Shown: in pieces, positions 5,103 to 44,773 of the stretch
How positions within the stretch are numbered: the first letter of the stretch is position 1
Layout: the number at the start of each line of letters is the position of its first letter
Program-made: the position numbers and the translations under genes
From: an uncultured delta proteobacterium
GTDB lineage: Bacteria; Desulfobacterota; Desulfobaccia; Desulfobaccales; 0-14-0-80-60-11
Assembly (NCBI GenBank): GCA_963834795.1
Contig: CAWIDL010000021.1
Coordinates: 134,243-198,242 of the forward strand
Reading direction: 5' to 3'
DNA: 64,000 nt
Notes under the pieces: model-generated
Told to the model about the DNA's origin: nothing
Database searches by the model: none
What the model saw: only the letters and a program-made list of their open reading frames with translations

Positions 5103-6039
5103 GTAACAGACTCCGCCGGGCGCGTTCTCGGTCGGCACCCCTGACCGGGCGGTAATGCCACTCCAGATCACCCTCCATAAAGTTGACGCCGCCTCCTTTA
5201 ATGGTTCGGCAGAGGACCACCCGCGGCTGGCCGGGGGCGTTGGCCCTGGCAAAGCTGTCCACCAGAGCCTGAAAATTGTGGCCTGCCTGTATTTCGGTTT
5301 CCCACCCGAAGCCGGACCATATGGAAGGTAAAGACAGTCCCGGCGAGATGTCCTCGCAGCGGCCGCAGGCCTGATAGCCATTCCAGTCCACCAGAGCGGT
5401 AAGATTGTCCAGCCCATGGGCCTTGGCCGCGGCGGCCGCTTCCCACACCGAGCCTTCATCGCATTCGCCGTCACCCAACAGCACGAAAACCCTGGCCGGC
5501 AATGACTTGAGCCGCAAGCCATAAGCCAGCCCCACGCCGAAGGACAATCCGTGCCCGAGGCTGCCCGCGGCCAGTTCCACTCCGGGCAACTCCCCGGGCA
5601 TGGGATGTTCGGCCAGGCAGCACGTGCTCTCGCAGTAGCGCTGCAACAAGGCCGGATCGAAGAAGCCGGCCCGGGCCAGCACGGCGTAATGGGCCATGGC
5701 TGCGTGTCCCTTGGAGAGAATGAAGCGGTCTCGATCCTCGGCCTGATACTTAGCCGGAGAAATGTTCAGGGCTCCGAAGTATACGGCGGCTATCATATCG
5801 ATACATGACAGTGCGGAGGCCACATGCCCGGACCTCTGGGCCATGTCGACCACATCCCAGCGCAGCATCCGCAAGCATTCTTCGGGGTTACGCTGCATGT
5901 CTGTATACATGGAACCTCCCGGCGGCACGCTGGCCGTCCTCATCCAGGCCGATATCAAGTTGACCCTGGCCACAGGAATGCTTGAGGCGACCTTCTGCAG
6001 CTTGTCAGCGGGGAGCCAGTTGTTCCTTATGGCAAGCAC
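5095..6039 (-). CDS. transketolase, N-terminal (TPP-binding) subunit
   Basis: 314 aa with LSKGHAAMAHYAVLA, GSLGHGLSFGVGLA and VLLGDGECDEGSVWEAA. Confidence 0.9.
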   Translation of the reverse strand: MLAIRNNWLPADKLQKVASSIPVARVNLISAWMRTASVPPGGSMYTDMQRNPEECLRMLRWDVVDMAQRSGHVASALSCIDMIAAVYFGALNISPAKYQAEDRDRFILSKGHAAMAHYAVLARAGFFDPALLQRYCESTCCLAEHPMPGELPGVELAAGSLGHGLSFGVGLAYGLRLKSLPARVFVLLGDGECDEGSVWEAAAAAKAHGLDNLTALVDWNGYQACGRCEDISPGLSLPSIWSGFGWETEIQAGHNFQALVDSFARANAPGQPRVVLCRTIKGGGVNFMEGDLEWHYRPVRGADRERARRSLLRA

Positions 6040-6789
6040 ACCGAGGTGGCCTTGATCTTTGCCTACAATTCCCAGGGCTGGTCAAAATCCCCCGCCGCTA
6101 ACGGGCGCCCGCAATGAGTTTAATTGTAAATATACCATAAATATTAGACCGAAGGGAGTAATGGAATTGAATTATCAAAAAAAAAGTTATAATTTAAGGA
6201 ATTTTTTGATAAAATTCAATTCGGGAAATAATCGGCAATCTGCACTCATTCTGGAAATGAGGGTTGAATCCCAGCACCATTCAAGAGAAAATATGAAGCG
6301 CCTTCAAGGAGATTCCTCAGTCCAAAACACTTTCACCATCTTTTCGTCAGCCTTTTGTAAGGAATCCCAGATCCACTTTACGCTGTTGGCAAGAATCATA
6401 ACGGCCTATTGCCGGGTCAGACGTCCCAGAACATAAGTTTTTAACAACAAGAAGGAGGCCCTACGGCCTGAGGGGAAGCGGGGGCCGCAAGGATTGGCCG
6501 GTAAAAATTTCAGGGCATGATGATGGGACGTGCTCGGCCTGCCCCGTATGCACTGGGTGCCGACGGGCTGGGGGCAGGTCACCCCATTACTCTTCGAGAA
6601 AGATTTAACGTATGCATCTGTGACCTGCCCCCCAAAACCTGATCCACAATATTACCAATCGGCTGAAATCCCTTACCGAGTAACTCCCCATCAAACCAAG
6701 GCGCCTCATAAGGCAATCAGGCGCGGTTTCCCCGGCCGGGGAGAAGTCCAGGACCACACCGCGCCCCTGGGCCCAGGCCCATAAAAATT

Positions 6790-7155
6790 TTATTCTGTTA
6801 AATTGGAGGGTTGGGCAGAAAACGGCGGCGGCTTTTTCACCAGATTTCCAGGCGAGACCACTCTGGTGCACAAATTTATCTTACTACCGGTCTTTGCATC
6901 AAAAATGGTGGACGCCAGAACAGCCCCGTCTCCGTCAAGAACCACCATATTGAGGCCGCCCCGGTCCCTGGATTGCTCTAGTCCCGACACTTTTATGGAT
7001 GCCCGGTCGCCGAAGGGGACGCCCGCGGAATACAAGGCAATATCTTTGGTTAACCTGTCCTTCCCGATAAGTTCCCTCTTCCGCAGCTCAATTTTTACTG
7101 CGCCCTTATCGTCGATTTTCTCGAAAATCTTTGCGCCATGGCTAAATATCCCCAC
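6790..7155 (-). CDS. hypothetical protein, possible ILEI/FAM3-like domain fragment
   Basis: 121 aa with a GTG start. RGGLNMVVLDGDGAVLASTIFDAKTG resembles the ILEI-domain core. It starts 5 nt from the IS630 insertion site. Confidence 0.35.
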   Translation of the reverse strand: MGIFSHGAKIFEKIDDKGAVKIELRKRELIGKDRLTKDIALYSAGVPFGDRASIKVSGLEQSRDRGGLNMVVLDGDGAVLASTIFDAKTGSKINLCTRVVSPGNLVKKPPPFSAQPSNLTE

Positions 7156-7161
7156 ATATTA

Positions 7162-8269
7162 CTCAGAGCATTTAACTGATTAACTTTTTATGCTGCATAC
7201 TGTACGTGTTTTCCCTGGAAATAGTTGGCGACTATGTCCGGTTTGCATTGGCGACTCCGGAGATAGCTTCTGACCTTGCCCATCAACTCCGGTTGATTAG
7301 CTGGGCGTTGCCGACCCAGGGGATTGCTTTTGACATCTTGATTGAGCAATTCGTCCGGGTTGATCTCCGGACTATAGCTGGGAAGAAAAACTAACCGAAG
7401 TCGCTCCTCATTTTCTTTTACCCAGTTTTTCACCTTGAGGGAGCGGTGGACCGGGTGACAGTCGACGATGAGATATAGCCGGCGATCACTTTGACGAAGC
7501 AAGCGTCGGAGAAACTCTAAGAAAATTTGGGTAGTAAAGCGCTCTTTGAAAACCATGAAGTTTAAGCGCCCATGGTTGGTAATGGCAGAAATGATGTTGC
7601 AGCCGAAGCGCTGTCCAGTGGCCAAGATCACGGGCGTCTGACCTTTAAGGCCATAAGAGCGTCCCACGGCATGGTCTGACCGCAGCCCCATTTCATCACC
7701 CCAGTATATTTGGGCCTTCTCCCTCTGTGCCTGGCGGCGAATACTGGGATACTCTTTCTCCAGCCATTGCTGGACCTGCTCCGGATTTTGTTCCCAGGCC
7801 CAGCGCGCCGGTTTTTGCGGGGTAAAGCCCCAGCGTTTGAGATAGCGCCCTACGGTCCAGACTGACAACTGTAAACCAAAGCGGCGTTTAATGAGGAGCC
7901 CCACCGCTTCCCGGGTCCAGAGGTAAAAGGGCAATTTTAGTTGCTCCGGATGATGATCAATGACCGTCTTGGCAATTTGTGCAGCCTGCCAAGGCTGGAG
8001 CTTTCCTCCTTTCGGACGGCCTTTCCGTTTCGATTTGAGCGCTCCTGGACCCTGAAGGCGATACGCTTTAACCCATCCGCAGATGGTTTGCGGCGTAACT
8101 CCAAAGAGCTGGGCAACTTCCTTTTGCTTTTTACCGGCCAATACCGCTTTAACGGCTAATTGGCGAAGATGTTCTTGCGCAGATGACGATATGGAGCGAG
8201 CATCGACTTTTTGCAGGCAATATCTATAGCCTATGTCCCTAAATAAGTTAAGCTATTTATTGCACTGGG
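7162..8269 (-). mobile_element. IS630-family insertion sequence (copy 1)
   Basis: Imperfect terminal inverted repeats: CTCAGAGCATTTAAC... at 7162 versus ...TTATTGCACTGGG ending at 8269. TA dinucleotides flank it at 7160-7161 and 8270-8271, the typical IS630 target duplication. Confidence 0.8.
7188..8141 (-). CDS. IS630-family transposase (DDE)
   Basis: 317 aa with an N-terminal HTH (KEVAQLFGVTPQTICGWVKAY) and a DDE-type core (IYWGDEMG, LIVDCHPVH, LPSYSPEINPDE). The open frame continues about 75 nt upstream without an ATG, so the start is uncertain. Confidence 0.9.
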   Translation of the reverse strand: MAGKKQKEVAQLFGVTPQTICGWVKAYRLQGPGALKSKRKGRPKGGKLQPWQAAQIAKTVIDHHPEQLKLPFYLWTREAVGLLIKRRFGLQLSVWTVGRYLKRWGFTPQKPARWAWEQNPEQVQQWLEKEYPSIRRQAQREKAQIYWGDEMGLRSDHAVGRSYGLKGQTPVILATGQRFGCNIISAITNHGRLNFMVFKERFTTQIFLEFLRRLLRQSDRRLYLIVDCHPVHRSLKVKNWVKENEERLRLVFLPSYSPEINPDELLNQDVKSNPLGRQRPANQPELMGKVRSYLRSRQCKPDIVANYFQGKHVQYAA

Positions 8270-35806: not shown

Positions 35807-35882
35807 CGGTCCCATCGTCTAGCGGCCAAGGACACCGCCCTCTCACGGCGGAGACACGGGTTCGATTCCCGTTGGGACTACC
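35807..35882 (+). tRNA. tRNA-Glu (anticodon CTC), CCA encoded
   Basis: 76 nt. Acceptor GGTCCCA/TGGGACT, anticodon stem CCGCC/GGCGG with loop CTCTCAC, T-arm ACGGG-TTCGATT-CCCGT. Confidence 0.95.
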
Positions 35883-36071
35883 AAAATCGTCCTTAACCTG
35901 CTTAAATTACTAAAGATAATTTTCAGAGACCCCCGAACGTTTCACCTTTCCGTCCACCTCCAGCAGCGCCTGACCTGCCCCCCAAAAACTGGTCCAAATA
36001 TTAAGTTAGAGATAAGCAAACCGATTCGAGTGGCGCGAGAAATGTCACCGCCTCCCCGCCTTAAGCAGCTA

Positions 36072-37184
36072 GTACTTAGTTGCATAAATCAGAGATACGA
36101 TTAGCCAAGCCTTTGGGATAAACATACCTTTTCCGCCATTGAAACGGTGCGGCTTGTGGATTGTAAGCCTGGACGAATTTATCGATAGCCTTCCTGACTT
36201 GTTGGGGGGAGGTGAAATTAGCCCCTTTGAGGGCACCGCGGCTGAGGATGCTGAACCAAACCTCGATTTGATTAAGCCAAGAGGCAGAAGTTGGAGTGTA
36301 ATGGAATTTAACCTGGGGATGCCTCTTCAACCACATATCGTTTTTGGGCTTATGGGTATTGAGGTTGTCTAAAATCACATGGAGTTCCTGATCAGGATAG
36401 TCAGCCAATATCTGGTTCATGAAGTCCAGAAATTCCACCCGCCGCCGTCGGTTATAGTGACCGGCTTTTACCTGACCGGTAGTCACTTCCAGGGCGGCAA
36501 ATAACGTGGTGGTGCCATGCCGCTTGTAACCGTGACTGAACCCCGTCAAGGTCTTGCCATTGGGAAGTTTCAGCCATCCCTGCGCTCTTTCCAGGGCCTG
36601 AATCTGGGGTTTTTCATCCACACAGATGACCACGGCGTTCTCCGGCGGGTCCAGGTAAAGTCCCACAATGTCCGCAGCCTTGCGGGCAAACTCGGGATCG
36701 GTGCTGACGCACCAGCTCCGGCGGCGTTCAAGACTGATGTTATGGCGCCGCAGGATGCGCCAGACCTGATGCTTGGTAACGTCACCCAAGGCTTCGGACA
36801 GAAGCCTGCCGTTCCAGCGGGCATAGCCTTCGGGAGGCGGTTCGTCCAGTTTTCTCAGCACCCGTTTTTCCGTGTCCTGCCTGTAGCTGCTGGGCTTCCC
36901 CGGTCTTTGGGCATCTTCCAAACCGGCCAGGCCTTCGCTGGCAAAGCGGGTCCGCCACTTGCTGACGGTGTTGGGGCGAACCTTCAAGTCCTTGGCAATG
37001 CCGCTGGTTTTTGCTCCCTGCGCCGCCGCCAAAATAATGCGAGCCCGCAGAACCTGGCGCTGTTCAGTTTTACTGTTACGTATCCTGGATTCGAGAATCC
37101 TACGGTCATCATCCGTCAATTGAATTTGAGTCGCTCTCATAATCGAGAGCCTATCATATATCGCTAATTAAAGCAACTATATAC
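36072..37184 (-). mobile_element. IS630-family insertion sequence (copy 2, different lineage from copy 1)
   Basis: TIRs GTACTTAGTTGCATAAATCAG (36072-) versus the reverse complement GTATATAGTTGCTTTAATTAG (-37184). TA duplications lie at 36070-36071 and 37185-37186. Length 1,113 bp. Confidence 0.85.
36076..37140 (-). CDS. IS630-family transposase
   Basis: 354 aa, intact, with N-terminal HTHs (RILESRIRNSK..., IAKDLKVRPNTVSKWRTRF) and the DDE core (VICVDEKPQIQALE, HVILDNLNTHK, TPTSASWLNQIE). Confidence 0.95.
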   Translation of the reverse strand: MRATQIQLTDDDRRILESRIRNSKTEQRQVLRARIILAAAQGAKTSGIAKDLKVRPNTVSKWRTRFASEGLAGLEDAQRPGKPSSYRQDTEKRVLRKLDEPPPEGYARWNGRLLSEALGDVTKHQVWRILRRHNISLERRRSWCVSTDPEFARKAADIVGLYLDPPENAVVICVDEKPQIQALERAQGWLKLPNGKTLTGFSHGYKRHGTTTLFAALEVTTGQVKAGHYNRRRRVEFLDFMNQILADYPDQELHVILDNLNTHKPKNDMWLKRHPQVKFHYTPTSASWLNQIEVWFSILSRGALKGANFTSPQQVRKAIDKFVQAYNPQAAPFQWRKRYVYPKGLANRISDLCN

Positions 37185-37518: not shown

Positions 37519-39012
37519 CTAAAATAGCTCCGGGCCTTTCACTATGGGCTTCCCCGCCGCTCCGGCGATGGCTTCTAACATGCCCCGATAAACCCAGTGG
37601 TGGAAGGGAACCAGGCTATACCAGTAAACTATGCCTGCCAAGCCCCGGGGTAAAAATCTCGCGGTTTGTTTAAGTTCCACCTTGCCGTCTCCTTGCGGGG
37701 TGAGGTGAAACTCCAGGACTGCCTCCCCAGGCAGTTTCATTTCGGCCAGCAATAAGAGGCGACGTGGCGGTTCCACCTCCAGGACCCGCCAGAAATCCAG
37801 GGCGTCTCCCGGCCGGAGTTCCTGGGGATGGCGCCGGCCACCTCTAAAACCGATGCCGCCCAGGAGCCGGTCTATCCAGCCCCGCAGCCGCCACAAATAG
37901 TTGCCGAAATAGTAGCCGGTCTCTCCGCCCATCCTGATGATGGGCTGCCAGACGTCTTCGGGAGTAGCTTGTATCTGGACAGAGTAGCCGCACTCCAGAA
38001 TGGTGCCGCCGGCATAAGTGGTATCGCCACAGTAGGTCCATTCCGGGGGAATGGCGCCTCCGGCATCCATCCAACAGGTGTCGATTTGCTGCTGCTTCAG
38101 CCGTTCCAGCGCCAGCCGGATGGTTTGGCGGCAATCCAAAAGCTCTTGGGGAATAATGGCCCGGATGCGATTGTCCTTGCAAACTACAGGGTTACGAAGC
38201 CCCTCGGCCAGGGGCCTGGCGATGCTCGCCGGGACCGGGGTGATCAGGTGGATCCAGTAAGAGCTCAGGGTGGGAGTCAGGACTGGCACCGGGATGATGA
38301 GTCGGCGAAGAAGATGGGCTTCTTCTGCATAAATGTCGAATAAGTGCCGGTAGGTCACCACCTCCGGGCCGCCGATGTCGAAGGTTTGCCCTCGGGTTTC
38401 TTCATGTTCCAGGCAGCCTTGCAGATAATTGAGCACATTGCGGATGGCAATGGGTTGCACCGGGTTGTGAACCCAGCGGGGGGTTAGCATGACCGGCAGG
38501 CGGTCCACCAGATAGCGCAGAATTTCAAAGGAAGCGCTTCCCGAACCCAGAATCATCGCGGCCCGAAGGAAGGTGACCGGCACCGGACCGGATTGCAGGA
38601 TTTGGGCCACTTCATGTCGGGAGCGGAGATGCTTGCTCAGGAGGGGGTCCTCCGTGCTACCTAATCCGCCCAAGTAAATGATATGTTCCAGTCCGGCCCC
38701 GGCCGCAGCGCGTACCATATTTTGGGCCGCCGTGCGGTCAGTCTCGGTAAACCCCTTGGAGTCGGCCCCCATGGAATGGACCAAATAAAAGGCCGCCCGA
38801 CAGCCTTCCATCGCTTTTCGTAAAGATTCATAATCCAGTACATCAGCCGCGGCCAACTCCGCCAGTGGATAGTTGGCCCAAGGTCGGGCTTTCAACTTGG
38901 CTATCGATCTCCCCAGAGCCCGCACCCGGTAACCCGATCCCAGAAGTTTGGGTACCAGTCGGCCCCCTACATATCCAGTTGACCCAGCAACCAGCACAGG
39001 TTTGGTCGTCAT
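37519..39012 (-). CDS. SDR-family NAD(P)-binding protein with DUF2867-type C-terminal domain
   Basis: 497 aa with VLVAGSTGYVGGRL (Rossmann). The C-terminal half matches my recollection of the DUF2867/SRPBCC-like module commonly fused to NmrA-like SDRs. Confidence 0.85.
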   Translation of the reverse strand: MTTKPVLVAGSTGYVGGRLVPKLLGSGYRVRALGRSIAKLKARPWANYPLAELAAADVLDYESLRKAMEGCRAAFYLVHSMGADSKGFTETDRTAAQNMVRAAAGAGLEHIIYLGGLGSTEDPLLSKHLRSRHEVAQILQSGPVPVTFLRAAMILGSGSASFEILRYLVDRLPVMLTPRWVHNPVQPIAIRNVLNYLQGCLEHEETRGQTFDIGGPEVVTYRHLFDIYAEEAHLLRRLIIPVPVLTPTLSSYWIHLITPVPASIARPLAEGLRNPVVCKDNRIRAIIPQELLDCRQTIRLALERLKQQQIDTCWMDAGGAIPPEWTYCGDTTYAGGTILECGYSVQIQATPEDVWQPIIRMGGETGYYFGNYLWRLRGWIDRLLGGIGFRGGRRHPQELRPGDALDFWRVLEVEPPRRLLLLAEMKLPGEAVLEFHLTPQGDGKVELKQTARFLPRGLAGIVYWYSLVPFHHWVYRGMLEAIAGAAGKPIVKGPELF

Positions 39013-39034
39013 CAGATACCCCAGTGAGACCCAT

Positions 39035-39400
39035 TCAGAGCCATATCCTGTCTAACGCGCCACCGGGATCAGCACCTCGTCGGAGCAGGAACCAGGGCAT
39101 GAAAGGTGGATTGTACCTGGCAAAGACAGGCTCATCCGTTATTTTTAGACCCCTTTGCCGAATGAGTTCCTTGAACCGACTCTCCTTTTCCTCATAGCGC
39201 TCCCTGTCAGCCAGATCTGCCCAGTAGGCTACCTGGTCTCCCATGACTTTGGACTCCACTTCGGTCATGTTCTGAGTAAAGCTTGGCCTGGGAGGATTGA
39301 GCCTGCATAAGAAATACTTCATCTCCCTATCATTGGGGCGGGAAAAATTGCGGATATGATCTGGATAGGGGAGGTTTTCAGGGTCTTGATAAGTTCCCAT
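39035..39400 (-). CDS. hypothetical protein (possibly YciI/dimeric alpha-beta-barrel-like N-terminus)
   Basis: 121 aa. KYFLCRLNPPRPSFTQNMTEVESKVMGDQVAYW resembles YciI-like proteins, but the C-terminus diverges. Confidence 0.5.
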   Translation of the reverse strand: MGTYQDPENLPYPDHIRNFSRPNDREMKYFLCRLNPPRPSFTQNMTEVESKVMGDQVAYWADLADRERYEEKESRFKELIRQRGLKITDEPVFARYNPPFMPWFLLRRGADPGGALDRIWL

Positions 39401-39499
39401 TCATAGCAGTTATCTTTATCGTCAAGTTAACTGCCCGGCCACGCATTGAGAAGCCCGGTGCAGCACTTTGTTGGGCAGTATCATTAGCCGAAAACACAA

Positions 39500-41077
39500 T
39501 TATAAAACATCGGTTAGCGCATCCAGTTTTTCAAGAAGCGGTAGCACACAACGATTCCGAAGAGCATTCATTATATCTTTTGTGATAACCTTTGTCTTCT
39601 GGATATCACCCCATTGCTCTCGAAGGTCAATACTGCCAATCGTGCTTGAAATACCGACCAATCCTTCGGCTCCTTTGTCATCAAGGATGACAGGGATTAT
39701 GTGCTCTTTACGACCTGATTGGGTCATAATGTCCTTTTCGTATTTGGTCCATACCTTGTCCCGGTAGTTTTGGTCAAGAAAGGCGAGATAGTATCGGCAT
39801 GATTCAGCATAGATGCGTCCTAACGTTTGTTCCAAATCTAAAGCAAGCAAGAAAGCCTGCTGATCGTAGTCATAAAACGTTACAACATCTTCGGACTTGA
39901 GCTCTGAGTTGACAGCCTCAACAATCTGCCTTGCCTCTCCAGCGAATGAGAATCCTACATCGTAGGAGAAAACTTTTGAGCGTTCTACGCTCTCATTTTC
40001 GATGCCTAGGTCTCGGTAAAGATCCTTCGACTCGAGGTAAGATAGGAAATACCGAAAGAGCGGATCTTCGATAGAGAAGCCACCTTCGGGATCGAAAGCA
40101 ATCTGCTTTCTGAGATCAACTTGCTTCAGGGGATCGAAAATCACTTCGGCAATGCGAGGACGTATTGCTTTGATTCCTGGCTTCCGACGATCTGGAACCA
40201 TGTTTAATATCTTATCGTAAGTTACAACTGAGTCGGGTATCCGGCATACTGCTAGCAGTACCTCGAGATAAGGTTTATTTCCGCCAGGCCGCCATTTCTT
40301 GCCCTTGGCGAAAGTCCTTGCGATGGGCATGTACCGCTGCAAAAGCTCGGTCATCAAACGCTGCCGTATTGATAGAAGATCGAATGTTAATATCTTTACA
40401 TCTTCTTGGGTCTCAAATACTTCTTGCGAAGAACAGATCTTGTTGCAGATATATTGAGCAAGCCAAAAGTTTCCCGCACTCTCACTCAGCAAGATATCAC
40501 GGTCTTCGAATATAATATTTAGAGCTTGTTCCCCTGCATCAATCAGGCGGTCGATTTCTCTGTCCTTGGCTTTTGGGAAGCGATAGTTTCCAAGCCTGGG
40601 TCCGAGGTCATAGGCATCAGAAAGTAACGATAATCCAGTTGTTGGAATCCCAATTAAAATGGTTTTCGGCGGCGACGCCTGCTCAAAAGCACGATCGCTT
40701 AAGCGCTTGAGGCTTGCTCCAATTTCTGCTCGTTTTTGGGTTGTAATGAGATGAAAATCATCAACAACAATTATTGGAGGGGCTGGCCGGGTGCTACAAC
40801 TGGTGGTTTCAAAAAAAAGGTTAATCTGGTTCTCAGCATCGTCATCGCGGCAACTAATGTAATTGTAGTCAAGGTCTTTTTGCCAACCCAGTTCTTCAAA
40901 GACTTTGTAGACTATGCAAGTCTTGCCTATTCCAGAGGGACCTTCGATCAGGAGATGTTTGCCCGGCTGCTCAATGTCGGCGCGTACCTCTCCGTAATAG
41001 GAGGGCTTGACGTAGGTATAAGGCGGTAAACCCACGGTTTTAAATACCTCTGTCAGCTGTCTCTTTTCCAACATCAT
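39500..41077 (-). CDS. P-loop ATPase fused to C-terminal TIR domain
   Basis: Walker A LIEGPSGIGKTCIV and Walker B PIIVVDDFH. C-terminal TIR: YDVGFSFAGEAR...VTFYDYD...YYLAFLDQNYRDKVWTKYE...IIPVILDD. The ATG at 41077 is preceded by GGGAGA; the track's GTG alternative is at 41092. Confidence 0.8.
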   Translation of the reverse strand: MMLEKRQLTEVFKTVGLPPYTYVKPSYYGEVRADIEQPGKHLLIEGPSGIGKTCIVYKVFEELGWQKDLDYNYISCRDDDAENQINLFFETTSCSTRPAPPIIVVDDFHLITTQKRAEIGASLKRLSDRAFEQASPPKTILIGIPTTGLSLLSDAYDLGPRLGNYRFPKAKDREIDRLIDAGEQALNIIFEDRDILLSESAGNFWLAQYICNKICSSQEVFETQEDVKILTFDLLSIRQRLMTELLQRYMPIARTFAKGKKWRPGGNKPYLEVLLAVCRIPDSVVTYDKILNMVPDRRKPGIKAIRPRIAEVIFDPLKQVDLRKQIAFDPEGGFSIEDPLFRYFLSYLESKDLYRDLGIENESVERSKVFSYDVGFSFAGEARQIVEAVNSELKSEDVVTFYDYDQQAFLLALDLEQTLGRIYAESCRYYLAFLDQNYRDKVWTKYEKDIMTQSGRKEHIIPVILDDKGAEGLVGISSTIGSIDLREQWGDIQKTKVITKDIMNALRNRCVLPLLEKLDALTDVL

Positions 41078-41351
41078 ATTTCTCCCAAACACGCCACCCA
41101 GCGCGAACCGTTCTTCCCGAGGTTAACCCCGAGAAGATTCCTCTTTTTGTGGCCAAATTGTCTTGTGGAGGGCATGATAGCACAAATTTTGAATGGCAAG
41201 GTATCTTTTTTGAGAATTGGCCTTACCAACCTCTTCCATAATTAGCGATCACTTGCCATGATCGGCTCTCATCGTAGGAGCGGTGAAAATACGAGATATG
41301 ATCTAAATTTCTATAACTACCATTTCAAAACGGTTCGAGGCATCGCCAAAC

Positions 41352-42524
41352 CTATTTGGCTTCAATAAGTTCCTCTCGCTCTAGCACACGACGAACTTCT
41401 TCGAAAACTGCTTTTATGTCTCCCTTGGGGAAGCGAATCTGCCCCAGGCCCTCGATATTGCTGAACTCCTCGCAACCTTCCTCCAGTAGTATGATAGCTC
41501 TTGAAAATCCAAGACGTCCTTGAAACAGGCCTGCCTCGTGAACAACATTCATTCGCGCATGATGCTTCCCGTCAGCTTGCTCATCCTCCCCAGTCATGAT
41601 CAAAAAAGCAATAGCCGCGGCATCAAGCATCTCAGAAAGACGTGCAATATTCGTTAGCCCAGCGACAGGCACTCGATTGAACTCGTCCCAGGGCAAGCGC
41701 AATCGGTCCTGGACGAAGTCTTTCAGCTCCCGCCAGATCGGGGAACGTCCGTGTCCGATAAAGACGTTCGTGCCTATCTCCCGTGAACGTTTGGATCGTC
41801 TCTGTTGCCGAGCGAGGTGCGAACCGGCCTTCTGTGCGAGCTGAGCCAAGCGACTGCAGGCGGCTGGTGCTTGCCTGAGGGTGGTGACCTCAGAGAGGAC
41901 TAAAAGGTGGGGCGGCACCTGAAGACCTTGTGTTACAGCCATGGAGTCTCTCGACATCAACGGTCTAGAAGGCAATAACTGATGAAGCACTTGATCTTTT
42001 GACTGGATAGCTGCCTGTTCTACCTGCTCCCTGAGAGACGTGATGAAGGGGTCCTCTCGTTCAGCCAGAGCCGTAGTCAAAATGGATAGTATATCCGGCT
42101 TGCTACTCTGGAACGAGCTTTCTGCACTGGACGCCAGGTGTCGGGCCGGTCCCAGGTCCGGGTTCCCTGCGATTTCGTATATCGTCCTCTCGATATCGTC
42201 GGGATCGTACTCGACCCACTCACCCTCTGTTGCTACGACTGGCCATACGCCCTTCATCCCCCATTCTGGGCTGAAATGGGCCTGCGGCGGGGGCGGCTTG
42301 AGATCCTTGTAGTAGATTCGGGCATGATATCCGAGGCAGGAGCCACTCCAGGCCTTCCTAACGCTAGCAGCTGCCTCCTCCAGACGCTCCAACGGTTCTT
42401 TTACTTCGGGAGCGGTGGCCTTCTGCGACAGGTCCCCGAGCCTCTCGGCAATCTCAAACAGTTCTTCGCTATGGTCACTTGTTGCCATCACGGTAGCCGT
42501 CTCCCTTCCGTCCTCTGATGTCAT
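41352..42524 (-). CDS. protein with unknown N-terminal domain and C-terminal TIR-like domain of the Cap12/Pycsar-effector type
   Basis: 390 aa. The last ~135 aa (NVFIGHGRSPIWRELKDFV...AIAFLIMTGEDEQ...HARMNVVHEAGLFQGRLGFSRAIILLEEG...SNIEGL) follow the pattern of the 'predicted nucleotide-binding TIR-like' family. Confidence 0.75.
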   Translation of the reverse strand: MTSEDGRETATVMATSDHSEELFEIAERLGDLSQKATAPEVKEPLERLEEAAASVRKAWSGSCLGYHARIYYKDLKPPPPQAHFSPEWGMKGVWPVVATEGEWVEYDPDDIERTIYEIAGNPDLGPARHLASSAESSFQSSKPDILSILTTALAEREDPFITSLREQVEQAAIQSKDQVLHQLLPSRPLMSRDSMAVTQGLQVPPHLLVLSEVTTLRQAPAACSRLAQLAQKAGSHLARQQRRSKRSREIGTNVFIGHGRSPIWRELKDFVQDRLRLPWDEFNRVPVAGLTNIARLSEMLDAAAIAFLIMTGEDEQADGKHHARMNVVHEAGLFQGRLGFSRAIILLEEGCEEFSNIEGLGQIRFPKGDIKAVFEEVRRVLEREELIEAK

Positions 42525-42536
42525 GGATATTAAGAA

Positions 42537-43112
42537 TCACATGATACATAGCCCCTTGATGGGTTCATATTCGCCTTTTTTAATAGTCATAAAATTCTTT
42601 GCTATTGGATAACAACCCGCAATGCAATTAGTTAACTTTGACATATTGGACAGAGACAAACGAGCTTGCAGAACAAGGTTTTCAAAGGTATCAATGTCGT
42701 ATTTTAACTGTTTAGTAGCTGATCCAGTTTTCTTTTTATGCAGCTTTTGACCAAGAGCAATTGCTTGTTTCCTTCCTTCCAGTTCTTGCTCAATTAAAAA
42801 CCATTTTACATGTAGCAGGTTATTTCTATCTGGAATCAATTTTTGAAAAGTCGAAAATACATAATCGATTATTTTAGCGGTTTCGGCATCTGGTTTCAGG
42901 TGCTCATAACATAAGCTATGAAACAAAGCCCTTAGAGGTTCAGCTGTCAAGTCAGCTAACAAGATTTCTTGAACTCGGTCACTCTTGAGCCCTTCCATTG
43001 TAAGGATGGACCTAATCCCACTCTCCATCGTTTGGCAAACTTGCTCAAACTCAACGACAAATTTTCCAATGTTTCCATAAATGGAAGATATATTTTTTTC
43101 TTTCTCAGCCAT
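42537..43112 (-). CDS. HEPN-like protein (Rx4H motif)
   Basis: 191 aa, AT-rich, predicted helical, with an R-x4-H motif in LIPDRNNLLHVKW. It ends 12 nt before the next gene. Confidence 0.5.
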   Translation of the reverse strand: MAEKEKNISSIYGNIGKFVVEFEQVCQTMESGIRSILTMEGLKSDRVQEILLADLTAEPLRALFHSLCYEHLKPDAETAKIIDYVFSTFQKLIPDRNNLLHVKWFLIEQELEGRKQAIALGQKLHKKKTGSATKQLKYDIDTFENLVLQARLSLSNMSKLTNCIAGCYPIAKNFMTIKKGEYEPIKGLCIM

Positions 43113-43274
43113 GGCTATTCAGACCAGCGCACATAAGTAATCCGGGGTATAATAGGAAGGTCTATGCGTACTAGCTTGCCAAAAAAGAAATTATCCTCAA
43201 TCTCCAAAAAATTTCAGATATGGTTCGGATATGTTGAATTTCGGGAACTACCGCGCCTTTATCCATCCATGTAT

Positions 43275-43913
43275 TTAGACAAATCTCATCCCCAGGGATA
43301 GGGCCTTCTCACAATCCTTAGGAAAGACCTCCTGGCGCCTCCTGGTCTTCTTCTCTGGATCAAAGCGGTCCGCCACCACTTTGCTATAATCCTTAAACTG
43401 ATAAGTATCAAAACTGCAGAGTGACTCCGAAGCCCCGAACACCATCTGCAACAGCCTTTGATTATTATCAAAGAACTGCTGATAACCCCATTCTTTCATC
43501 TGCTCTTCTGTGACATTCATCGTATAAATAAATCCCGTAGGAATTTTTTTGGGGAAAAGCGACTGCGGCGGGTCCGTATAGGTAAAATAGGGAAACAGCA
43601 AACGCTCCATAAACGAGCGCATCTCTCCCGACACATTGCCGAAATAGATGGGGGAGCCCAAAATTAAGGCATCGACCGCCTCAATTTTTTTAAAGATCGG
43701 GCGCAGATCATCCTTGACGGCACACCTGCCATAACTTTTGCCGCCTCTGATCTTACAAGCAAAGCAGCTCGTGCATCCGGTAAATTTCAGATCATATAAA
43801 TGGATGAGTTCGGTTTCAGCCCCCTTAGAGGCGGCTCCTTTAAGGGCTTTCCCTATCAGGGTAGCCGTATTCCATCTCTTTCTTGGGCTGCCGTTAACTG
43901 CCATGACCTTCAT
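43275..43913 (-). CDS. flavodoxin-like fold FMN reductase / iron-sulfur flavoprotein family
   Basis: Start set at MKVMAVNGSPRK (GGAGGGA upstream). Motifs CTSCFACK and LILGSPIYFGNVSGEM. The 322-aa track ORF is over-extended. Confidence 0.8.
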   Translation of the reverse strand: MKVMAVNGSPRKRWNTATLIGKALKGAASKGAETELIHLYDLKFTGCTSCFACKIRGGKSYGRCAVKDDLRPIFKKIEAVDALILGSPIYFGNVSGEMRSFMERLLFPYFTYTDPPQSLFPKKIPTGFIYTMNVTEEQMKEWGYQQFFDNNQRLLQMVFGASESLCSFDTYQFKDYSKVVADRFDPEKKTRRRQEVFPKDCEKALSLGMRFV

Positions 43914-44128
43914 AACGCATCCCTCCATCTTTCCTATGTTGCTCCCCTTGAAGCTGAAAAATAAAACTAAATGAATATAATTCCGGTTAATTTTTGGGGG
44001 GACATGGTTTAAACCAAGATGGGCATTTATCAACCATGGCCTTGCCCTCAGCCAGATTGGCATGGCGGCGCTCTCGTATGTCGACCCGCCATCCGTCAGC
44101 GCAAGGCCGGGGTATGGGCCGAGAAAAA

Positions 44129-44773
44129 TCAGTAGCCCAGATCTTCGCCCACCAGCTTTACATGGATACGGTTTTCCAGCATGTGCCCTTCGATGATGGA
44201 CCACATATAGCAAATCCGCTCGGGGCTCTTGCAGTCCGAGCATAGGCCCGTTTCGACACAGGGGGTGGCTCGGCTAAGGCGGATGGCGTTGATGGGGGCG
44301 GCGTGGTGTTTCACCCGGGCCATGGCGGTTTCCAGGTCCGGGGCCACCTTGTTGAGACCCACCGCCAGGATGACCTTTTTGGGTCCGAAACACATGGCCG
44401 CCACCCGGTTGCCCATCCCGTCCAGGTTCACAAGTTTGCCGTCCAGGGTCAAGGCGTTGGTACTGGTGAGAAAAAAGTCGGCCAAGAGCGACTGGCGGCG
44501 CCGCTCTTGCGCTACCTCCGGGGCCAAACCCGGGAGGAAAGGGTCAATCACCTCCACCCCGGGTTTGTGGGCCAGGGCCTCCCAAAGGCCCATCTCCACC
44601 ACCGACATGGAACCGCCCCGGCTGACGGTGGCCCCGGCGGGAATCATGGCCAGGATTTCGTCCCGAGCCTGGGCCGCGGTAGGGGCGTAGCTAGCCTCCA
44701 GCCGCCGCCTGGTGAGTTGTTTGATCAGGTGTTCCGCCAGCTTTTCCCTGTAGGTGATCTGATGTCTGTCCAT
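44129..44773 (-). CDS. LUD-domain (lactate-utilisation-like, DUF162) protein
   Basis: 214 aa with FLTSTNALTLDGKLVNLDGMGNRVAAMCFGPKKVILAVGLNKV and a C-terminal Cys motif CSDCKSPERIC. Confidence 0.85.
   Translation of the reverse strand: MDRHQITYREKLAEHLIKQLTRRRLEASYAPTAAQARDEILAMIPAGATVSRGGSMSVVEMGLWEALAHKPGVEVIDPFLPGLAPEVAQERRRQSLLADFFLTSTNALTLDGKLVNLDGMGNRVAAMCFGPKKVILAVGLNKVAPDLETAMARVKHHAAPINAIRLSRATPCVETGLCSDCKSPERICYMWSIIEGHMLENRIHVKLVGEDLGY

What the first reader, a model, noticed from the sequence alone, without database searches (positions are those of the whole stretch)
39500..41092. Compact ATPase-TIR protein (about 525 aa) lacking the repeat/sensor region of known TIR-STAND proteins
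Known bacterial NTPase-TIR defence proteins (Avs/bNACHT-like) are usually much larger and carry TPR/WD/LRR-like sensor arrays. Here the P-loop module, ~300 aa of helical sequence and a TIR make up the whole protein. The TIR belongs to the SFAGE(D)R...FYD...W(T)xxE...PxxxDD subtype that I associate with ThsB-like proteins. Start codon choice (GTG 41092 versus ATG 41077 with GGGAGA) is unresolved.
Basis: partly seen in the sequence, partly recalled or inferred. Interest (0 to 1): 0.65.

Follow-up and report, generated by a model that had tools for sequence, protein, structure and literature searches.

The report
Compact clamp-loader-like ATPase fused to TIR
This is an intact, horizontally transferred gene for a 524-residue protein that joins a replication-factor-like ATPase, a winged-helix domain and an NAD-cleaving TIR domain; it is most likely an untested single-gene anti-phage suicide switch.

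Summary
The ORF is real, on the minus strand at 39500-41092. Homologue N-termini place the start at ATG 41074, giving 524 aa. A high-confidence AlphaFold model (pLDDT 90) shows six parts: a conserved N-terminal motif, an AAA+ base, a helical lid, an invariant basic loop, a winged helix and a C-terminal TIR. There are no repeat or sensor arrays.

The closest solved folds are RFC clamp-loader subunits and ORC/Cdc6. All STAND, NACHT, Avs and bNACHT profiles are below threshold or absent. Walker A, Walker B (DD), an arginine at the arginine-finger position (R160) and the TIR catalytic glutamate (E446, "WTKYE" as in AbTir) are invariant.

The protein belongs to a tight family of at least 500 clusters. 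Members are 46-88% identical across about eight phyla and always about 524 aa. They have no conserved neighbour, a GC content well below their hosts', and often sit in prophages.

The 360-aa ATPase module defines about 1,500 representative clusters. It is almost always fused to TIR, and sometimes to CHAT, caspase, metallophosphatase or HD domains. It also matches the PADLOC candidate PDC-S59.

The best reading is ATP-dependent oligomerisation that clusters TIR domains and depletes NAD+. The trigger is unknown. This is a new variant of a known kind and has not been tested experimentally.

The parts
39500..41074 (-). Coding sequence of the 524-aa AAA+/winged-helix/TIR protein (stop codon 39500-39502).
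   Evidence: ORF list and sequence. An identical 524-aa protein, P0001, is called on 5 contigs. Homologue N-termini fix the start.
41081..41086 (-). Shine-Dalgarno-like GGGAGA, 6 nt upstream of ATG 41074 and 3 nt upstream of ATG 41077.
   Evidence: Read directly from the sequence. The spacing argument is an inference.
40985..41074 (-). Residues 1-30: conserved N-terminal motif VFKTVGLPPYTYVKP that precedes helix alpha-0. G15 and P17 are invariant even in relatives at 22-30% identity.
   Evidence: Alignments A1 and A3. Modelled at pLDDT 87-94.
40571..40984 (-). Residues 31-168: AAA+ alpha/beta base (five strands at 41-44, 70-74, 101-105, 137-142 and 162-165).
   Evidence: AF2 model. Pfam AAA above its cut-off. 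Foldseek matches to RFC and ORC/Cdc6.
40919..40942 (-). Walker A motif GPSGIGKT (residues 45-52).
   Evidence: G45, G48, G50 and K51 are invariant across 45 diverse relatives, and the equivalent G-x-G-K is invariant across 60 multidomain relatives.
40757..40762 (-). Walker B acidic pair D105-D106 within VVDDFH.
   Evidence: D105 and D106 are nearly invariant and F107 is invariant. They lie at the end of strand 101-105.
40595..40597 (-). R160, a candidate arginine finger at the end of helix 155-160, just before strand 162-165.
   Evidence: Invariant in all 105 relatives aligned. It aligns with the second Arg of RuvB 'RSRFG' (weak E about 0.01). That this RuvB residue is the arginine finger comes from my own knowledge.
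40304..40570 (-). Residues 169-257: helical lid domain containing ESAGNFWLAQYIC. W204 sits where RuvB has the Arg of 'GTPRIA', the sensor-2 position.
   Evidence: AF2 model, the RuvB alignment and invariant G201.
40264..40303 (-). Residues 258-270: basic glycine-rich loop GKKWRPGGNKPYL. It is 98% conserved within the family and recurs as G-[KN]-[KR]-x-[RK]-x-x-G-x-x-P-Y in compact relatives.
   Evidence: Per-domain conservation and alignment A3.
40034..40263 (-). Residues 271-347: winged-helix-like domain (helices 268-278, 286-292 and 295-312; beta-hairpin 325-335; helix 338-346).
   Evidence: AF2 model with pLDDT about 90. Foldseek alignments to ORC/Cdc6 chains span 412-426 columns. No Pfam family covers this stretch.
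39968..40033 (-). Residues 348-369: helical linker. This is the least conserved segment, with mean conservation 0.61.
39515..39967 (-). Residues 370-520: TIR domain with motifs SFAGE, FYD and VWTKYE.
   Evidence: Pfam TIR_2 at E 2.5e-9. Profile against PDB: 7uxr at 1e-12 and AbTIR 8g83 at 1.7e-11. AF2 strand/helix pattern.
39737..39739 (-). E446, the predicted catalytic glutamate of the TIR.
   Evidence: Invariant in all 45 sequences of A3. It aligns with the Glu of AbTir 'WTNYE'. That this Glu is catalytic in AbTir comes from my own knowledge.

Best explanation
This is a self-contained, horizontally mobile, single-gene anti-phage (abortive-infection) protein.

- **Switch and scaffold.** The N-terminal 360 residues form an AAA+ ATPase of the clamp-loader/ORC-Cdc6 type: base, lid and winged helix. 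This module acts as both the switch and the oligomerisation scaffold.
- **Killing domain.** The C-terminal TIR is the effector.
- **Proposed sequence of events.** An infection cue is read by the ATPase/winged-helix module itself, since there is no separate sensor array. ATP-bound protomers then assemble through the R160 (arginine-finger) interface into a ring or spiral. That brings the TIR domains into the head-to-tail contacts that create active NADase sites around E446. NAD+ is consumed and the infected cell stops growing before the phage matures.
- **Shown here:** the domain anatomy, the invariant catalytic motifs, solitary inheritance, mobility and carriage on prophages, and the recurrent fusion of the module to death effectors.
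- **Inferred:** the defence role, oligomerisation-dependent activation, NAD+ depletion as the output, and everything about the trigger.
For: - **Anatomy.** The AF2 model has pLDDT 90.2 and pTM 0.86 and shows AAA+ base, lid, winged helix and TIR with no repeats.
- **ATPase fold.** The top 50 Foldseek PDB hits are RFC or other clamp-loader subunits and ORC/Cdc6, plus the archaeal AAA+ ATPase 2fna, at E 6.5e-8 to 3e-6. Viral RFC-like proteins head the BFVD search.
- **Catalytic competence.** Walker A, Walker B, R160 and the TIR residue E446 are invariant or nearly so across relatives at 22-88% identity. R160 falls on the RuvB arginine-finger position. E446 falls on the AbTir 'WTNYE' glutamate.
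- **Solitary unit.** No neighbour is shared among 19 genomic loci or among 23 viral and plasmid loci.
- **Mobility.** Gene GC is below flank GC in 18 of 19 host loci, by 5-26 points in 17 of them, and is 43-46% against 58-68% in this window. The family occurs in Planctomycetes, Acidobacteria, Verrucomicrobia, Actinobacteria, Proteobacteria and Deinococcus.
- **Defence-like contexts.**
  - A Cupriavidus copy lies beside type III RM-type genes (ResIII helicase and N6_N4 methyltransferase) and prophage lysis and tail genes.
  - The Deinococcus copy lies among genes typical of mobile elements (ParB, VRR-NUC nuclease, terminase).
  - Twenty-two IMG/VR viral contigs carry such genes, some at a fixed site in a tail and baseplate operon that I read as P2-like.
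  - A Pantoea plasmid relative lies in an island with a toxin-antitoxin pair, TIR proteins, CapV and a macro-domain protein.
- **Effector swapping.** The module has 1,523 representative clusters. 58 of 60 multidomain relatives carry TIR_2. Others carry CHAT, caspase, Metallophos, HD-CE or PNP_UDP_1.
- **Independent flag.** PADLOC candidate PDC-S59 matches the module in 100 of 105 relatives.
- **From established knowledge of TIR enzymes.** TIR NADases such as SARM1, AbTir, TIR-STING, SPARTA and plant TNL receptors become active only when TIR domains self-associate.
Against: - No member of this family has been tested. No paper on it was found.
- No oligomer model could be made.
- The sensor-2 arginine is replaced by W204. 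In this tight family the residue after strand 4 is Pro where relatives have Asn. ATP turnover may therefore be slow or absent.
- Near-uniform conservation of 46-88% identity across phyla is unusual for proteins that read fast-evolving phage proteins.
- Some loci are plain housekeeping contexts.
- Whether the TIR hydrolyses NAD+ to depletion or makes a signalling nucleotide cannot be told from sequence.
Confidence: 0.55

Rival explanations
1. Thoeris-like signalling. The TIR does not deplete NAD+ but makes a cyclic-ADPR-type or ADPR-conjugate signal. That signal would activate a separate effector encoded elsewhere. In this window the candidate would be the adjacent 390-aa protein with a CAP12/Pycsar-type TIR-like domain.
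For: The TIR is closest to AbTir-type enzymes, which from my own knowledge make cADPR isomers. There are weak ThsB1 hits (6 of 45 relatives). A CAP12/PycTIR-domain gene sits 277 bp upstream at 41352-42524.
Against: The upstream gene accompanies the protein only in the window's own lineage (L001-L004). None of 19 genomic and 23 viral or plasmid loci shares any neighbour. No SLOG-, Macro- or SIR2-type receptor was seen next to the close family's genes where neighbours carried Pfam annotation. The 29%-identical Pantoea relative does sit in an island that includes a macro-domain protein.
Confidence: 0.12
2. Selfish mobile-element function. The gene would act as a prophage or plasmid addiction module, or as a superinfection-exclusion module that benefits the element rather than the host cell. 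The biochemistry would be the same as in the best explanation.
For: The gene is frequently carried on prophages and megaplasmids. In one phage group it occupies a fixed site in a tail and baseplate operon that I read as P2-like. Its GC is low in most hosts.
Against: Many copies are chromosomal singletons with no element genes nearby. This differs from the best explanation in who benefits, not in mechanism.
Confidence: 0.12
3. A truncated or degenerate relative of the large Avs, bNACHT or TIR-NLR STAND proteins that has lost its repeat sensor and is non-functional or decaying.
For: There are sub-threshold hits to nSTAND5, nSTAND3 and NPHP3_N. The DD Walker B and the absent sensor-2 arginine are STAND-like traits, from my own knowledge. 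[quoted passage not shown]
Against: Length is fixed at about 524 aa in 81 of the 120 best homologues. Purifying selection is strong across all domains. The effector is C-terminal, not N-terminal. No Avs or bNACHT PADLOC hit appears. The best folds are RFC and ORC, not NLRs. Genuine pseudogenes look different, for example the copy split by a transposase in L025.
Confidence: 0.03
4. Not immunity. The protein could be a TIR virulence or host-interaction factor like BtpA/TcpB, or a DNA-transaction ATPase (replication or transposition helper) that happens to carry a TIR.
For: Homologues occur on the Ralstonia pseudosolanacearum megaplasmid. The ATPase fold is RFC/ORC-like, with weak TnsC similarity in the P-loop region.
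Against: Most hosts are free-living soil or water bacteria. No secretion signal or partner was seen. No transposase or replication gene is conserved nearby. The module swaps TIR for CHAT, caspase or phosphoesterase domains, which is a conflict-system pattern.
Confidence: 0.05

Closest known systems
Bacterial NTPase-TIR immune proteins of the STAND class: Avs with TIR effectors, bNACHT, and the P4-satellite TIR-NLR system (PMC9122126)
   Same: A single polypeptide combines a P-loop oligomerisation NTPase of the wider Cdc6/Orc-STAND assemblage with a TIR effector. These proteins are mobile, carried on phages and satellites, and work by abortive-infection logic.
   Different: Here the NTPase is not a recognisable NACHT, NB-ARC or nSTAND domain. 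There is no TPR, WD, LRR or other C-terminal sensor. The TIR is C-terminal. The size is 524 aa, against typically 1,000-2,000 aa.
Clamp-loader (RFC, gamma/delta') and ORC/Cdc6 initiator AAA+ ATPases
   Same: These are the best structural matches over 350-430 aligned columns, covering base, lid and a third domain. An arginine sits at the arginine-finger position. The lid carries a G-x-x-x-x-A-Q motif in the register of the clamp-loader and RuvB sensor-2 motif.
   Different: Sequence identity is only 11-18% and TM-scores are 0.3-0.5. Walker B is DD rather than DE. The sensor-2 arginine is replaced by Trp. The protein is fused to TIR and has no replication context.
AbTir/BtpA/TcpB-type bacterial TIR NADases (PDB 7uxr, 8g83, 7uwg, 4lqc)
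   Same: The TIR domain matches at E 1e-12 to 1e-8, including the W-T-x-Y-E catalytic stretch.
   Different: Those proteins have coiled-coil or no N-terminal partner domains. Here an AAA+ module replaces them.
Thoeris ThsB
   Same: A TIR of the bacterial TIR_2 type, with weak PADLOC ThsB1 similarity.
   Different: There is no ThsA-type partner and no conserved neighbour at all. ThsB proteins lack an ATPase.
PADLOC phage-defence candidate PDC-S59 (with PDC-S66 for the TIR part)
   Same: The PDC-S59 model aligns to residues 102-283 (Walker B to the start of the winged helix) at E 3e-11. It hits 100 of 105 relatives.
   Different: The match is partial (model positions 155-333 of 428) and of moderate score, so this is a sister family rather than PDC-S59 itself. 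PDC-S59 is an unvalidated candidate with no paper in the library.
Orc/Cdc6-family ATPases fused to TIR, noted in KAP-NTPase gene neighbourhoods (Nucleic Acids Res 2024, PMC10853773)
   Same: That work is a computational record that Orc/Cdc6-clade AAA+ domains can be fused to NADase TIR domains in conflict systems.
   Different: Those fusions sit in multi-gene operons with a second Orc/Cdc6 and a KAP NTPase. This family is solitary. Homology between the two was not tested.
E. coli TIR-I to TIR-IX systems, one of which contains an AAA domain (Nat Commun 2024, PMC11350192)
   Same: Experimentally validated TIR systems that kill or arrest the infected cell.
   Different: No DNA-level match to a Pantoea relative exists in 5,426 E. 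coli genomes. The relationship is unknown.

Membership tests
Avs / bNACHT / TIR-NLR (antiviral STAND NTPases) | A STAND NTPase domain recognisable by NACHT, NB-ARC, nSTAND or Avs/bNACHT profiles | tested here: not met
   Pfam scores are nSTAND5 20.0 bits (cut-off 34), nSTAND3 14.7 (27.2) and NPHP3_N 15.7 (24.8), with no NACHT or NB-ARC hit. PADLOC gives no Avs or bNACHT hit for the protein or among the families listed for 105 relatives. No NLR or Apaf-like chain appears in the top 50 Foldseek PDB hits.
Avs / bNACHT / TIR-NLR (antiviral STAND NTPases) | A C-terminal repeat or other dedicated sensor domain (TPR, WD40, LRR and similar) | tested here: not met
   The AF2 model accounts for all 524 residues as N-terminal motif, AAA+ base, lid, winged helix, linker and TIR. 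Pfam finds no repeat family.
Avs / bNACHT / TIR-NLR (antiviral STAND NTPases) | Effector domain N-terminal to the NTPase | tested here: not met
   The TIR occupies residues 370-520, C-terminal to the ATPase.
AAA+ ATPases, clamp-loader / ORC-Cdc6 type | Walker A and Walker B on an alpha/beta base preceded by helix alpha-0, followed by a helical lid | tested here: met
   GPSGIGKT at 45-52 and DD at 105-106, with helix 27-35 before strand 41-44 and a lid at 169-257. Pfam AAA scores above its cut-off. Foldseek E-values against RFC and ORC chains are about 1e-7.
AAA+ ATPases, clamp-loader / ORC-Cdc6 type | Trans-acting arginine finger at the end of helix alpha-4, before strand 5 | tested here: inconclusive
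   R160 is invariant in 105 relatives and sits in the right place. It aligns to the RuvB RSRFG arginine, but that alignment is weak at E about 0.01. No oligomer model was made.
AAA+ ATPases, clamp-loader / ORC-Cdc6 type | Sensor-2 arginine in the lid | tested here: not met
   W204 occupies the position of the RuvB GTPRIA arginine. Relatives have W, H, Q, N or Y there.
AAA+ ATPases, clamp-loader / ORC-Cdc6 type | Third domain after the lid (a winged helix in ORC/Cdc6) | tested here: met
   The model shows a three-helix plus beta-hairpin domain at 268-346, at structure-prediction level only. Alignments to Cdc6/Orc1 chains span 412-426 columns (2qby_A, 1fnn_A, 7jgr_A).
TIR-domain NADases (Pfam TIR_2; AbTir-like) | TIR fold recognised by the family profile | tested here: met
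   TIR_2 scores 38.1 bits against a cut-off of 28. Matches to solved TIR chains are 7uxr at 1e-12 and 8g83 at 1.7e-11. The model has pLDDT about 90.
TIR-domain NADases (Pfam TIR_2; AbTir-like) | Catalytic glutamate in the helix after strand C | tested here: met
   E446 is invariant in 45 diverse sequences. It aligns with the Glu of AbTir WTNYE.
TIR-domain NADases (Pfam TIR_2; AbTir-like) | NAD+ cleavage activity | not testable with these tools
   This needs an enzyme assay.
Thoeris (ThsB plus ThsA) | ThsB-type TIR protein encoded next to a ThsA effector (SIR2 or TM with SLOG or Macro) | tested here: not met
   No neighbour is conserved in 19 plus 23 loci. The ThsB1 profile scores only E 0.027.
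PADLOC candidate PDC-S59 | Full-length match to the PDC-S59 model | tested here: inconclusive
   The match is partial: residues 102-283 against model positions 155-333 of 428, at E 3e-11. This indicates a homologous module but probably a different family.

The most novel reading that the evidence does not exclude
The 360-aa clamp-loader/ORC-like AAA+ and winged-helix module is itself the pathogen sensor. On this reading it recognises an invariant nucleic-acid feature of infection, such as DNA ends, primer-template junctions or replication intermediates. It would do so through its winged helix and the invariant basic loop GKKWRPGGNKPY, then assemble as a spiral on that template and line up TIR domains into an active NADase filament. 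That would make it a third, repeat-free route from NTPase to TIR activation, distinct from STAND/NLR receptors. It would also explain why the protein is 65-75% identical across phyla: the ligand does not evolve. The module, with about 1,500 representative clusters, would then be a general TIR-activating adaptor that larger proteins reuse.
Probability: 0.22. Interest if true: 0.75.

Novelty: new variant of a known kind. Interest (0 to 1): 0.55.

Why it matters
NTPase-plus-TIR immune proteins are central to bacterial, plant and animal immunity. The characterised ones use STAND/NLR ATPases with large repeat sensors. This family has the same logic in about a quarter to half the size, with a clamp-loader/ORC-like ATPase and no dedicated sensor. 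The ATPase and winged-helix core must therefore both sense and assemble. That makes it a tractable minimal system of 524 aa, a single gene with a confident model, for asking how ATP-driven oligomerisation switches a TIR on. The module is widespread, carried on prophages and not covered by a curated Pfam family beyond the generic P-loop. Annotating it would label many 'TIR domain-containing' and 'AAA family' hypothetical proteins. A 65%-identical homologue on the megaplasmid of the model strain Ralstonia pseudosolanacearum GMI1000 offers a direct genetic test.

Tried and rejected
- **First AF2 run.** It used only close homologues (A1, 68-88% identity) and gave pLDDT 58 with residues 150-369 unmodelled. 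It was replaced by the run on the diverse alignment A3.
- **Single-sequence PDB search.** It gave only P-loop noise.
- **Promoter and terminator scan.** The number of sites around the gene was no higher than in shuffled sequence.
- **Rfam and repeats.** Rfam found only a tRNA-Glu 3.6 kb away. No flanking repeats suggested att sites.
- **Three-gene system with the upstream genes.** I considered and rejected the idea that the upstream CAP12-type TIR gene and the 191-aa gene form one system with this gene. They co-occur only in the window's own lineage.
- **Literature searches.** Searches for PDC-S59, nSTAND5 and AAA-TIR/ATPase-TIR found nothing relevant.
- **E. coli TIR paper.** It does not give sequences in its text and no supplement is held.
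- **E. coli genomes.** No DNA-level match to the Pantoea relative was found.
- **INPHARED phages.** The only hit was to the TIR part alone.
- **Local type-A TIR HMM.** It missed the canonical TIRs of the multidomain relatives, so Pfam counts were used instead.
- The third large homology search and the last fold search were not needed.
Full report
**Observation.** The minus strand carries one uninterrupted ORF from 41092 to 39500, which is 530 codons from GTG. Pfam detects an AAA domain near the N-terminus (27.8 bits, cut-off 21.2). It also detects a TIR_2 domain near the C-terminus (38.1 bits, cut-off 28). Nothing repeat-like is found. An identical 524-aa protein is called on five independent metagenome contigs.

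**Start codon.** Of the 120 best homologues, 81 are exactly 524 aa. They begin M-x-(E/D)-K-(K/R)-x-L, followed by the invariant VFKTVGLP. This matches translation from the second ATG of the ATGATG pair, at 41074 (MLEKRQL...). That ATG lies 6 nt downstream of the GGGAGA at 41081-41086. ATG 41077 would add one residue and cannot be excluded. GTG 41092 has no support. All residue numbers below use the 524-aa protein. Searches used the 530-aa translation, so their positions are offset by 6.

**Family and distribution.** Two word-indexed searches found 335 and 511 clusters respectively.
- The members listed (the best 120 of each search) are nearly all 500-540 aa, and most are annotated only as 'TIR domain-containing protein', 'AAA family ATPase' or 'hypothetical protein'.
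- Identity to the window protein is 68-88% for the bulk of the family. It falls to 44-52% for a few outliers, such as Deinococcus hohokamensis P0121 and P0133.
- A pattern-limited scan of one genome per species returned 19 loci. They come from Planctomycetota, Acidobacteriota, Verrucomicrobiota, Actinomycetota, Alpha-, Beta- and Gammaproteobacteria and Deinococcus.
- The window itself probably comes from a Desulfobaccales genome, judging from the names attached to the flanking SDR gene's cluster.
- Conservation is high and even across all domains. Mean column conservation is 0.74-0.83, rises to 0.98 in a 13-residue basic loop, and drops to 0.61 only in the linker.

**Single-gene unit and mobility.**
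- ORFs from the 19 genomic loci were clustered. Only the gene itself, and its antisense shadow ORFs, is shared.
- The same holds for 22 viral contigs and a plasmid locus.
- The upstream CAP12/Pycsar-type TIR-domain gene (41352-42524) and the 191-aa gene (42537-43112) accompany it only on contigs of the window's own lineage.
- The gene's GC is 43-46% against 58-68% in the flanks here. It is below flank GC in 18 of 19 other hosts, by 5-26 points in 17 of them. This indicates repeated horizontal acquisition.
- Several contexts resemble defence or mobile-element settings:
  - In Cupriavidus the gene lies beside type III RM-type genes (ResIII helicase and N6_N4 methyltransferase) and prophage lysis and tail genes.
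  - In Deinococcus it lies among ParB, VRR-NUC, PAPS-reductase/DUF3440 and terminase genes, a set typical of mobile elements.
  - In an Acidobacteriota genome it lies among transposases and a resolvase.
  - On an IMG/VR contig carrying a 68%-identical copy, it lies near tail/host-specificity and endolysin genes.
- In six related viral contigs, a 27-28%-identical compact relative occupies a fixed site in a tail and baseplate operon that I read as P2-like. The site lies between the spanin and tail-terminator genes and the baseplate genes.
- A Pantoea plasmid relative lies in an island with a Phd/RelE toxin-antitoxin pair, three further TIR proteins, a CapV phospholipase and a macro-domain protein.
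- Some loci are ordinary housekeeping neighbourhoods.
- Decayed copies exist. In L025 the gene is split by a transposase insertion.

**Structure.** A first model built from close homologues failed in the middle of the protein, with pLDDT 58. An exhaustive profile search with the N-terminal 361 residues supplied compact relatives at 22-31% identity. With the resulting 45-sequence alignment (A3) AlphaFold2 gave pLDDT 90.2 and pTM 0.86. The anatomy is as follows.

| Residues | Element | Notes |
|---|---|---|
| 1-30 | Conserved N-terminal motif | G15 and P17 invariant even in distant relatives |
| 31-168 | AAA+ base | Helix alpha-0 at 27-35; strands 41-44, 70-74, 101-105, 137-142, 162-165 |
| 169-257 | Helical lid | Contains ESAGNFWLAQYIC |
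| 258-270 | Basic loop GKKWRPGGNKPYL | 98% conserved |
| 271-347 | Winged-helix-like domain | Three helices plus a beta-hairpin |
| 348-369 | Linker | Least conserved segment |
| 370-520 | TIR | Motifs SFAGE, FYD, VWTKYE |

**What kind of ATPase.**
- Foldseek against the PDB returns, in its top 50, RFC or other clamp-loader subunits and ORC/Cdc6 chains plus one archaeal AAA+ ATPase. Examples are 8ui7_D (6.5e-8), 6vvo_D, 7jgr_A, 2qby_A, 1fnn_A, 1w5s_B, and the archaeal protein 2fna. Alignments span 255-591 columns, most of them 310-430.
- The viral structure library gives viral RFC and clamp-loader proteins.
- Profile searches against PDB sequences rank dynein AAA modules, RuvB (E 2e-6 over base and lid), VCP-like ATPases, EccA1 and TnsC. 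These rank above the one clear STAND chain listed, 6mfv at 0.002.
- In the weak RuvB alignment (E about 0.01), R160 falls on the second Arg of RuvB 'RSRFG' and W204 falls on the Arg of 'GTPRIA'. From my own knowledge these are RuvB's arginine finger and sensor 2.
- R160 is invariant in all 105 relatives aligned. The sensor-2 position is never Arg.
- Walker B is DD, not DE.
- Pfam STAND models (nSTAND5, nSTAND3, NPHP3_N, NACHT) hit the module only below threshold, at about 15-22 bits. PADLOC lists no Avs or bNACHT model for the protein or among the families it reports for 105 relatives.
- STAND NTPases are themselves placed in the Cdc6/Orc clade (PMC8195603). The fair statement is that the module lies in the clamp-loader/ORC-Cdc6/STAND neighbourhood and belongs to no named STAND clade. 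It keeps an AAA+-style arginine finger, and it has some switch-like traits (the DD Walker B and the missing sensor-2 Arg).
- No Pfam family covers residues 150-370.

**The TIR.** The profile matches solved TIR chains: 7uxr (1e-12), AbTIR 8g83 and 7uwg (about 1e-11), 4lzp, TcpB 4lqc, and the plant RPS4 and Roq1 TIRs. The stretch VWTKYE aligns with AbTir DWTNYE, and E446 is invariant. ThsB similarity is marginal: PADLOC ThsB1 scores E 0.027, and PDC-S66 does better at 2e-6. The domain looks catalytically competent. Its product cannot be predicted.

**The module beyond this family.**
- The exhaustive search found 1,523 representative clusters at E ≤ 1e-3, of which 631 reach 1e-10 and 185 reach 1e-30.
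- Of 102 representatives with a near-complete module, 58 have the same SFAGE-type TIR directly downstream.
- Among 60 longer proteins, 58 carry Pfam TIR_2.
- Architectures include TIR-module-TIR and TIR-module-CHAT. They also include caspase-TIR-module-TIR, HD-CE-module-TIR, PNP_UDP_1-TIR-module-TIR and HsdM-type methylase-HTH-TIR-module-TIR. Two further types are module-Metallophos and fusions behind NB-ARC+TPR or NACHT+HEAT arrays.
- The PADLOC candidate PDC-S59 matches the module in 100 of 105 relatives, but never at full length.
- So the compact protein is the minimal form of a widespread 'ATPase-wHTH then TIR' cassette that larger proteins embed.

**Mechanism (inferred).** TIR NADases become active when their domains self-associate, which is established for SARM1, AbTir, TIR-STING, SPARTA and plant TNLs. 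An AAA+ module with an intact P-loop and an invariant arginine finger is a natural ATP-dependent assembly device. There is no partner and no separate sensor. The simplest model has three steps.
1. The ATPase/winged-helix core detects an infection cue.
2. The core oligomerises and clusters the TIR domains.
3. NAD+ is destroyed, which aborts the infection.

I put this at about 0.55. The trigger is open. The RFC/ORC-like fold, the winged helix, the invariant basic loop and the unusually slow sequence evolution make a nucleic-acid or other invariant ligand attractive. That is speculation, at about 0.2. The rivals are Thoeris-like signalling to an unlinked effector, a mainly element-selfish role, a decayed STAND protein and a non-immune role. 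They are weighed in the rivals section. The decayed-STAND reading is essentially excluded.

**Comparison and novelty.** The protein works like the NTPase-TIR immune proteins (Avs-TIR, bNACHT, TIR-NLR; PMC9122126). It fails their membership tests on ATPase type, sensor and domain order. Orc/Cdc6-TIR fusions have been noted computationally, in a different multi-gene setting (PMC10853773). A related module is a PADLOC candidate. No paper or experiment on this family was found. I rate it a new variant of a known kind with interest 0.55. It is not categorically new, but it is a compact, well-modelled and widespread system that can be tested directly.

Noticed in passing
window 41352-42524 (-) and 42537-43112 (-): Directly upstream lie two further low-GC genes only 12 nt apart. 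One encodes a 390-aa protein with an unknown 250-aa N-terminal region and a C-terminal CAP12/Pycsar-effector TIR-like domain (Pfam PF10137 at E 2e-19; PADLOC PDC-S35; phrog_16442 at E 9e-39). The other encodes a 191-aa protein with no family hit, whose 90% cluster has a single member. No cyclase or CD-NTase is nearby. This may be a separate two-gene candidate defence system that forms a mini-island with the AAA+-TIR gene.
   Followed up: partly
window 35808-35883 (+) and 36076-37140 (-): A tRNA-Glu(CTC) gene lies next to a DDE_3 transposase with HTH domains, which I read as IS630-type. They sit about 2.4-3.7 kb from the low-GC segment at 39000-43900. This could mark an integration hotspot, but no flanking direct repeats were found.
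   Followed up: partly
L025 6004-9484 (Bryobacterales MAG): A family member is split after about residue 281 by an insertion of roughly 1.2 kb that encodes a 292-aa transposase-like ORF, and it has a later frameshift. L021 and L026 copies also look frameshifted. Pseudogenisation therefore occurs in this family.
   Followed up: partly
L043, L045, L046, L047, L050, L054 (IMG/VR contigs), about 6000-7530: Compact module+TIR relatives (27-28% identity) occupy the same site in related viral genomes whose gene order I read as P2-like. The site lies between the Rz-like spanin and tail-terminator genes and the baseplate genes. It looks like a fixed cargo (moron) slot.
   Followed up: partly
P0240, P0246, P0230, P0231, P0189, P0272/P0277 (proteins): The same ATPase module is embedded in unusual fusions. 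These include HsdM-type N6-methylase+HTH+TIR+module+TIR, nucleoside phosphorylase (PNP_UDP_1)+TIR+module+TIR, HD-CE+module+TIR, caspase+TIR+module+TIR, TIR+module+CHAT and module+calcineurin-like phosphoesterase.
   Followed up: partly
NC_003296.1 150518-152080 (L031 9001-10563): The megaplasmid of the model plant pathogen Ralstonia pseudosolanacearum GMI1000 encodes a 65%-identical full-length homologue. The same gene is present on the megaplasmids of three other Ralstonia strains, and in one of them the match is in two pieces spread over about 2.6 kb. The PLSDB table lists no annotated gene there.
   Followed up: no
window 43275-44243 (-): The mechanical ORF is 322 aa, but gene callers on sister contigs call only a 212-217-aa flavodoxin-like (Flavodoxin_2/FMN_red) protein. 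The long N-terminal extension is probably not translated.
   Followed up: no
window 39035-39400 (-): A 121-aa ORF lies 99 nt downstream of the TIR gene, with only a weak sub-threshold SOUL haem-binding hit (E 5e-4). On sister contigs it is called as 121 aa or 69 aa. It is not found next to family members elsewhere.
   Followed up: partly
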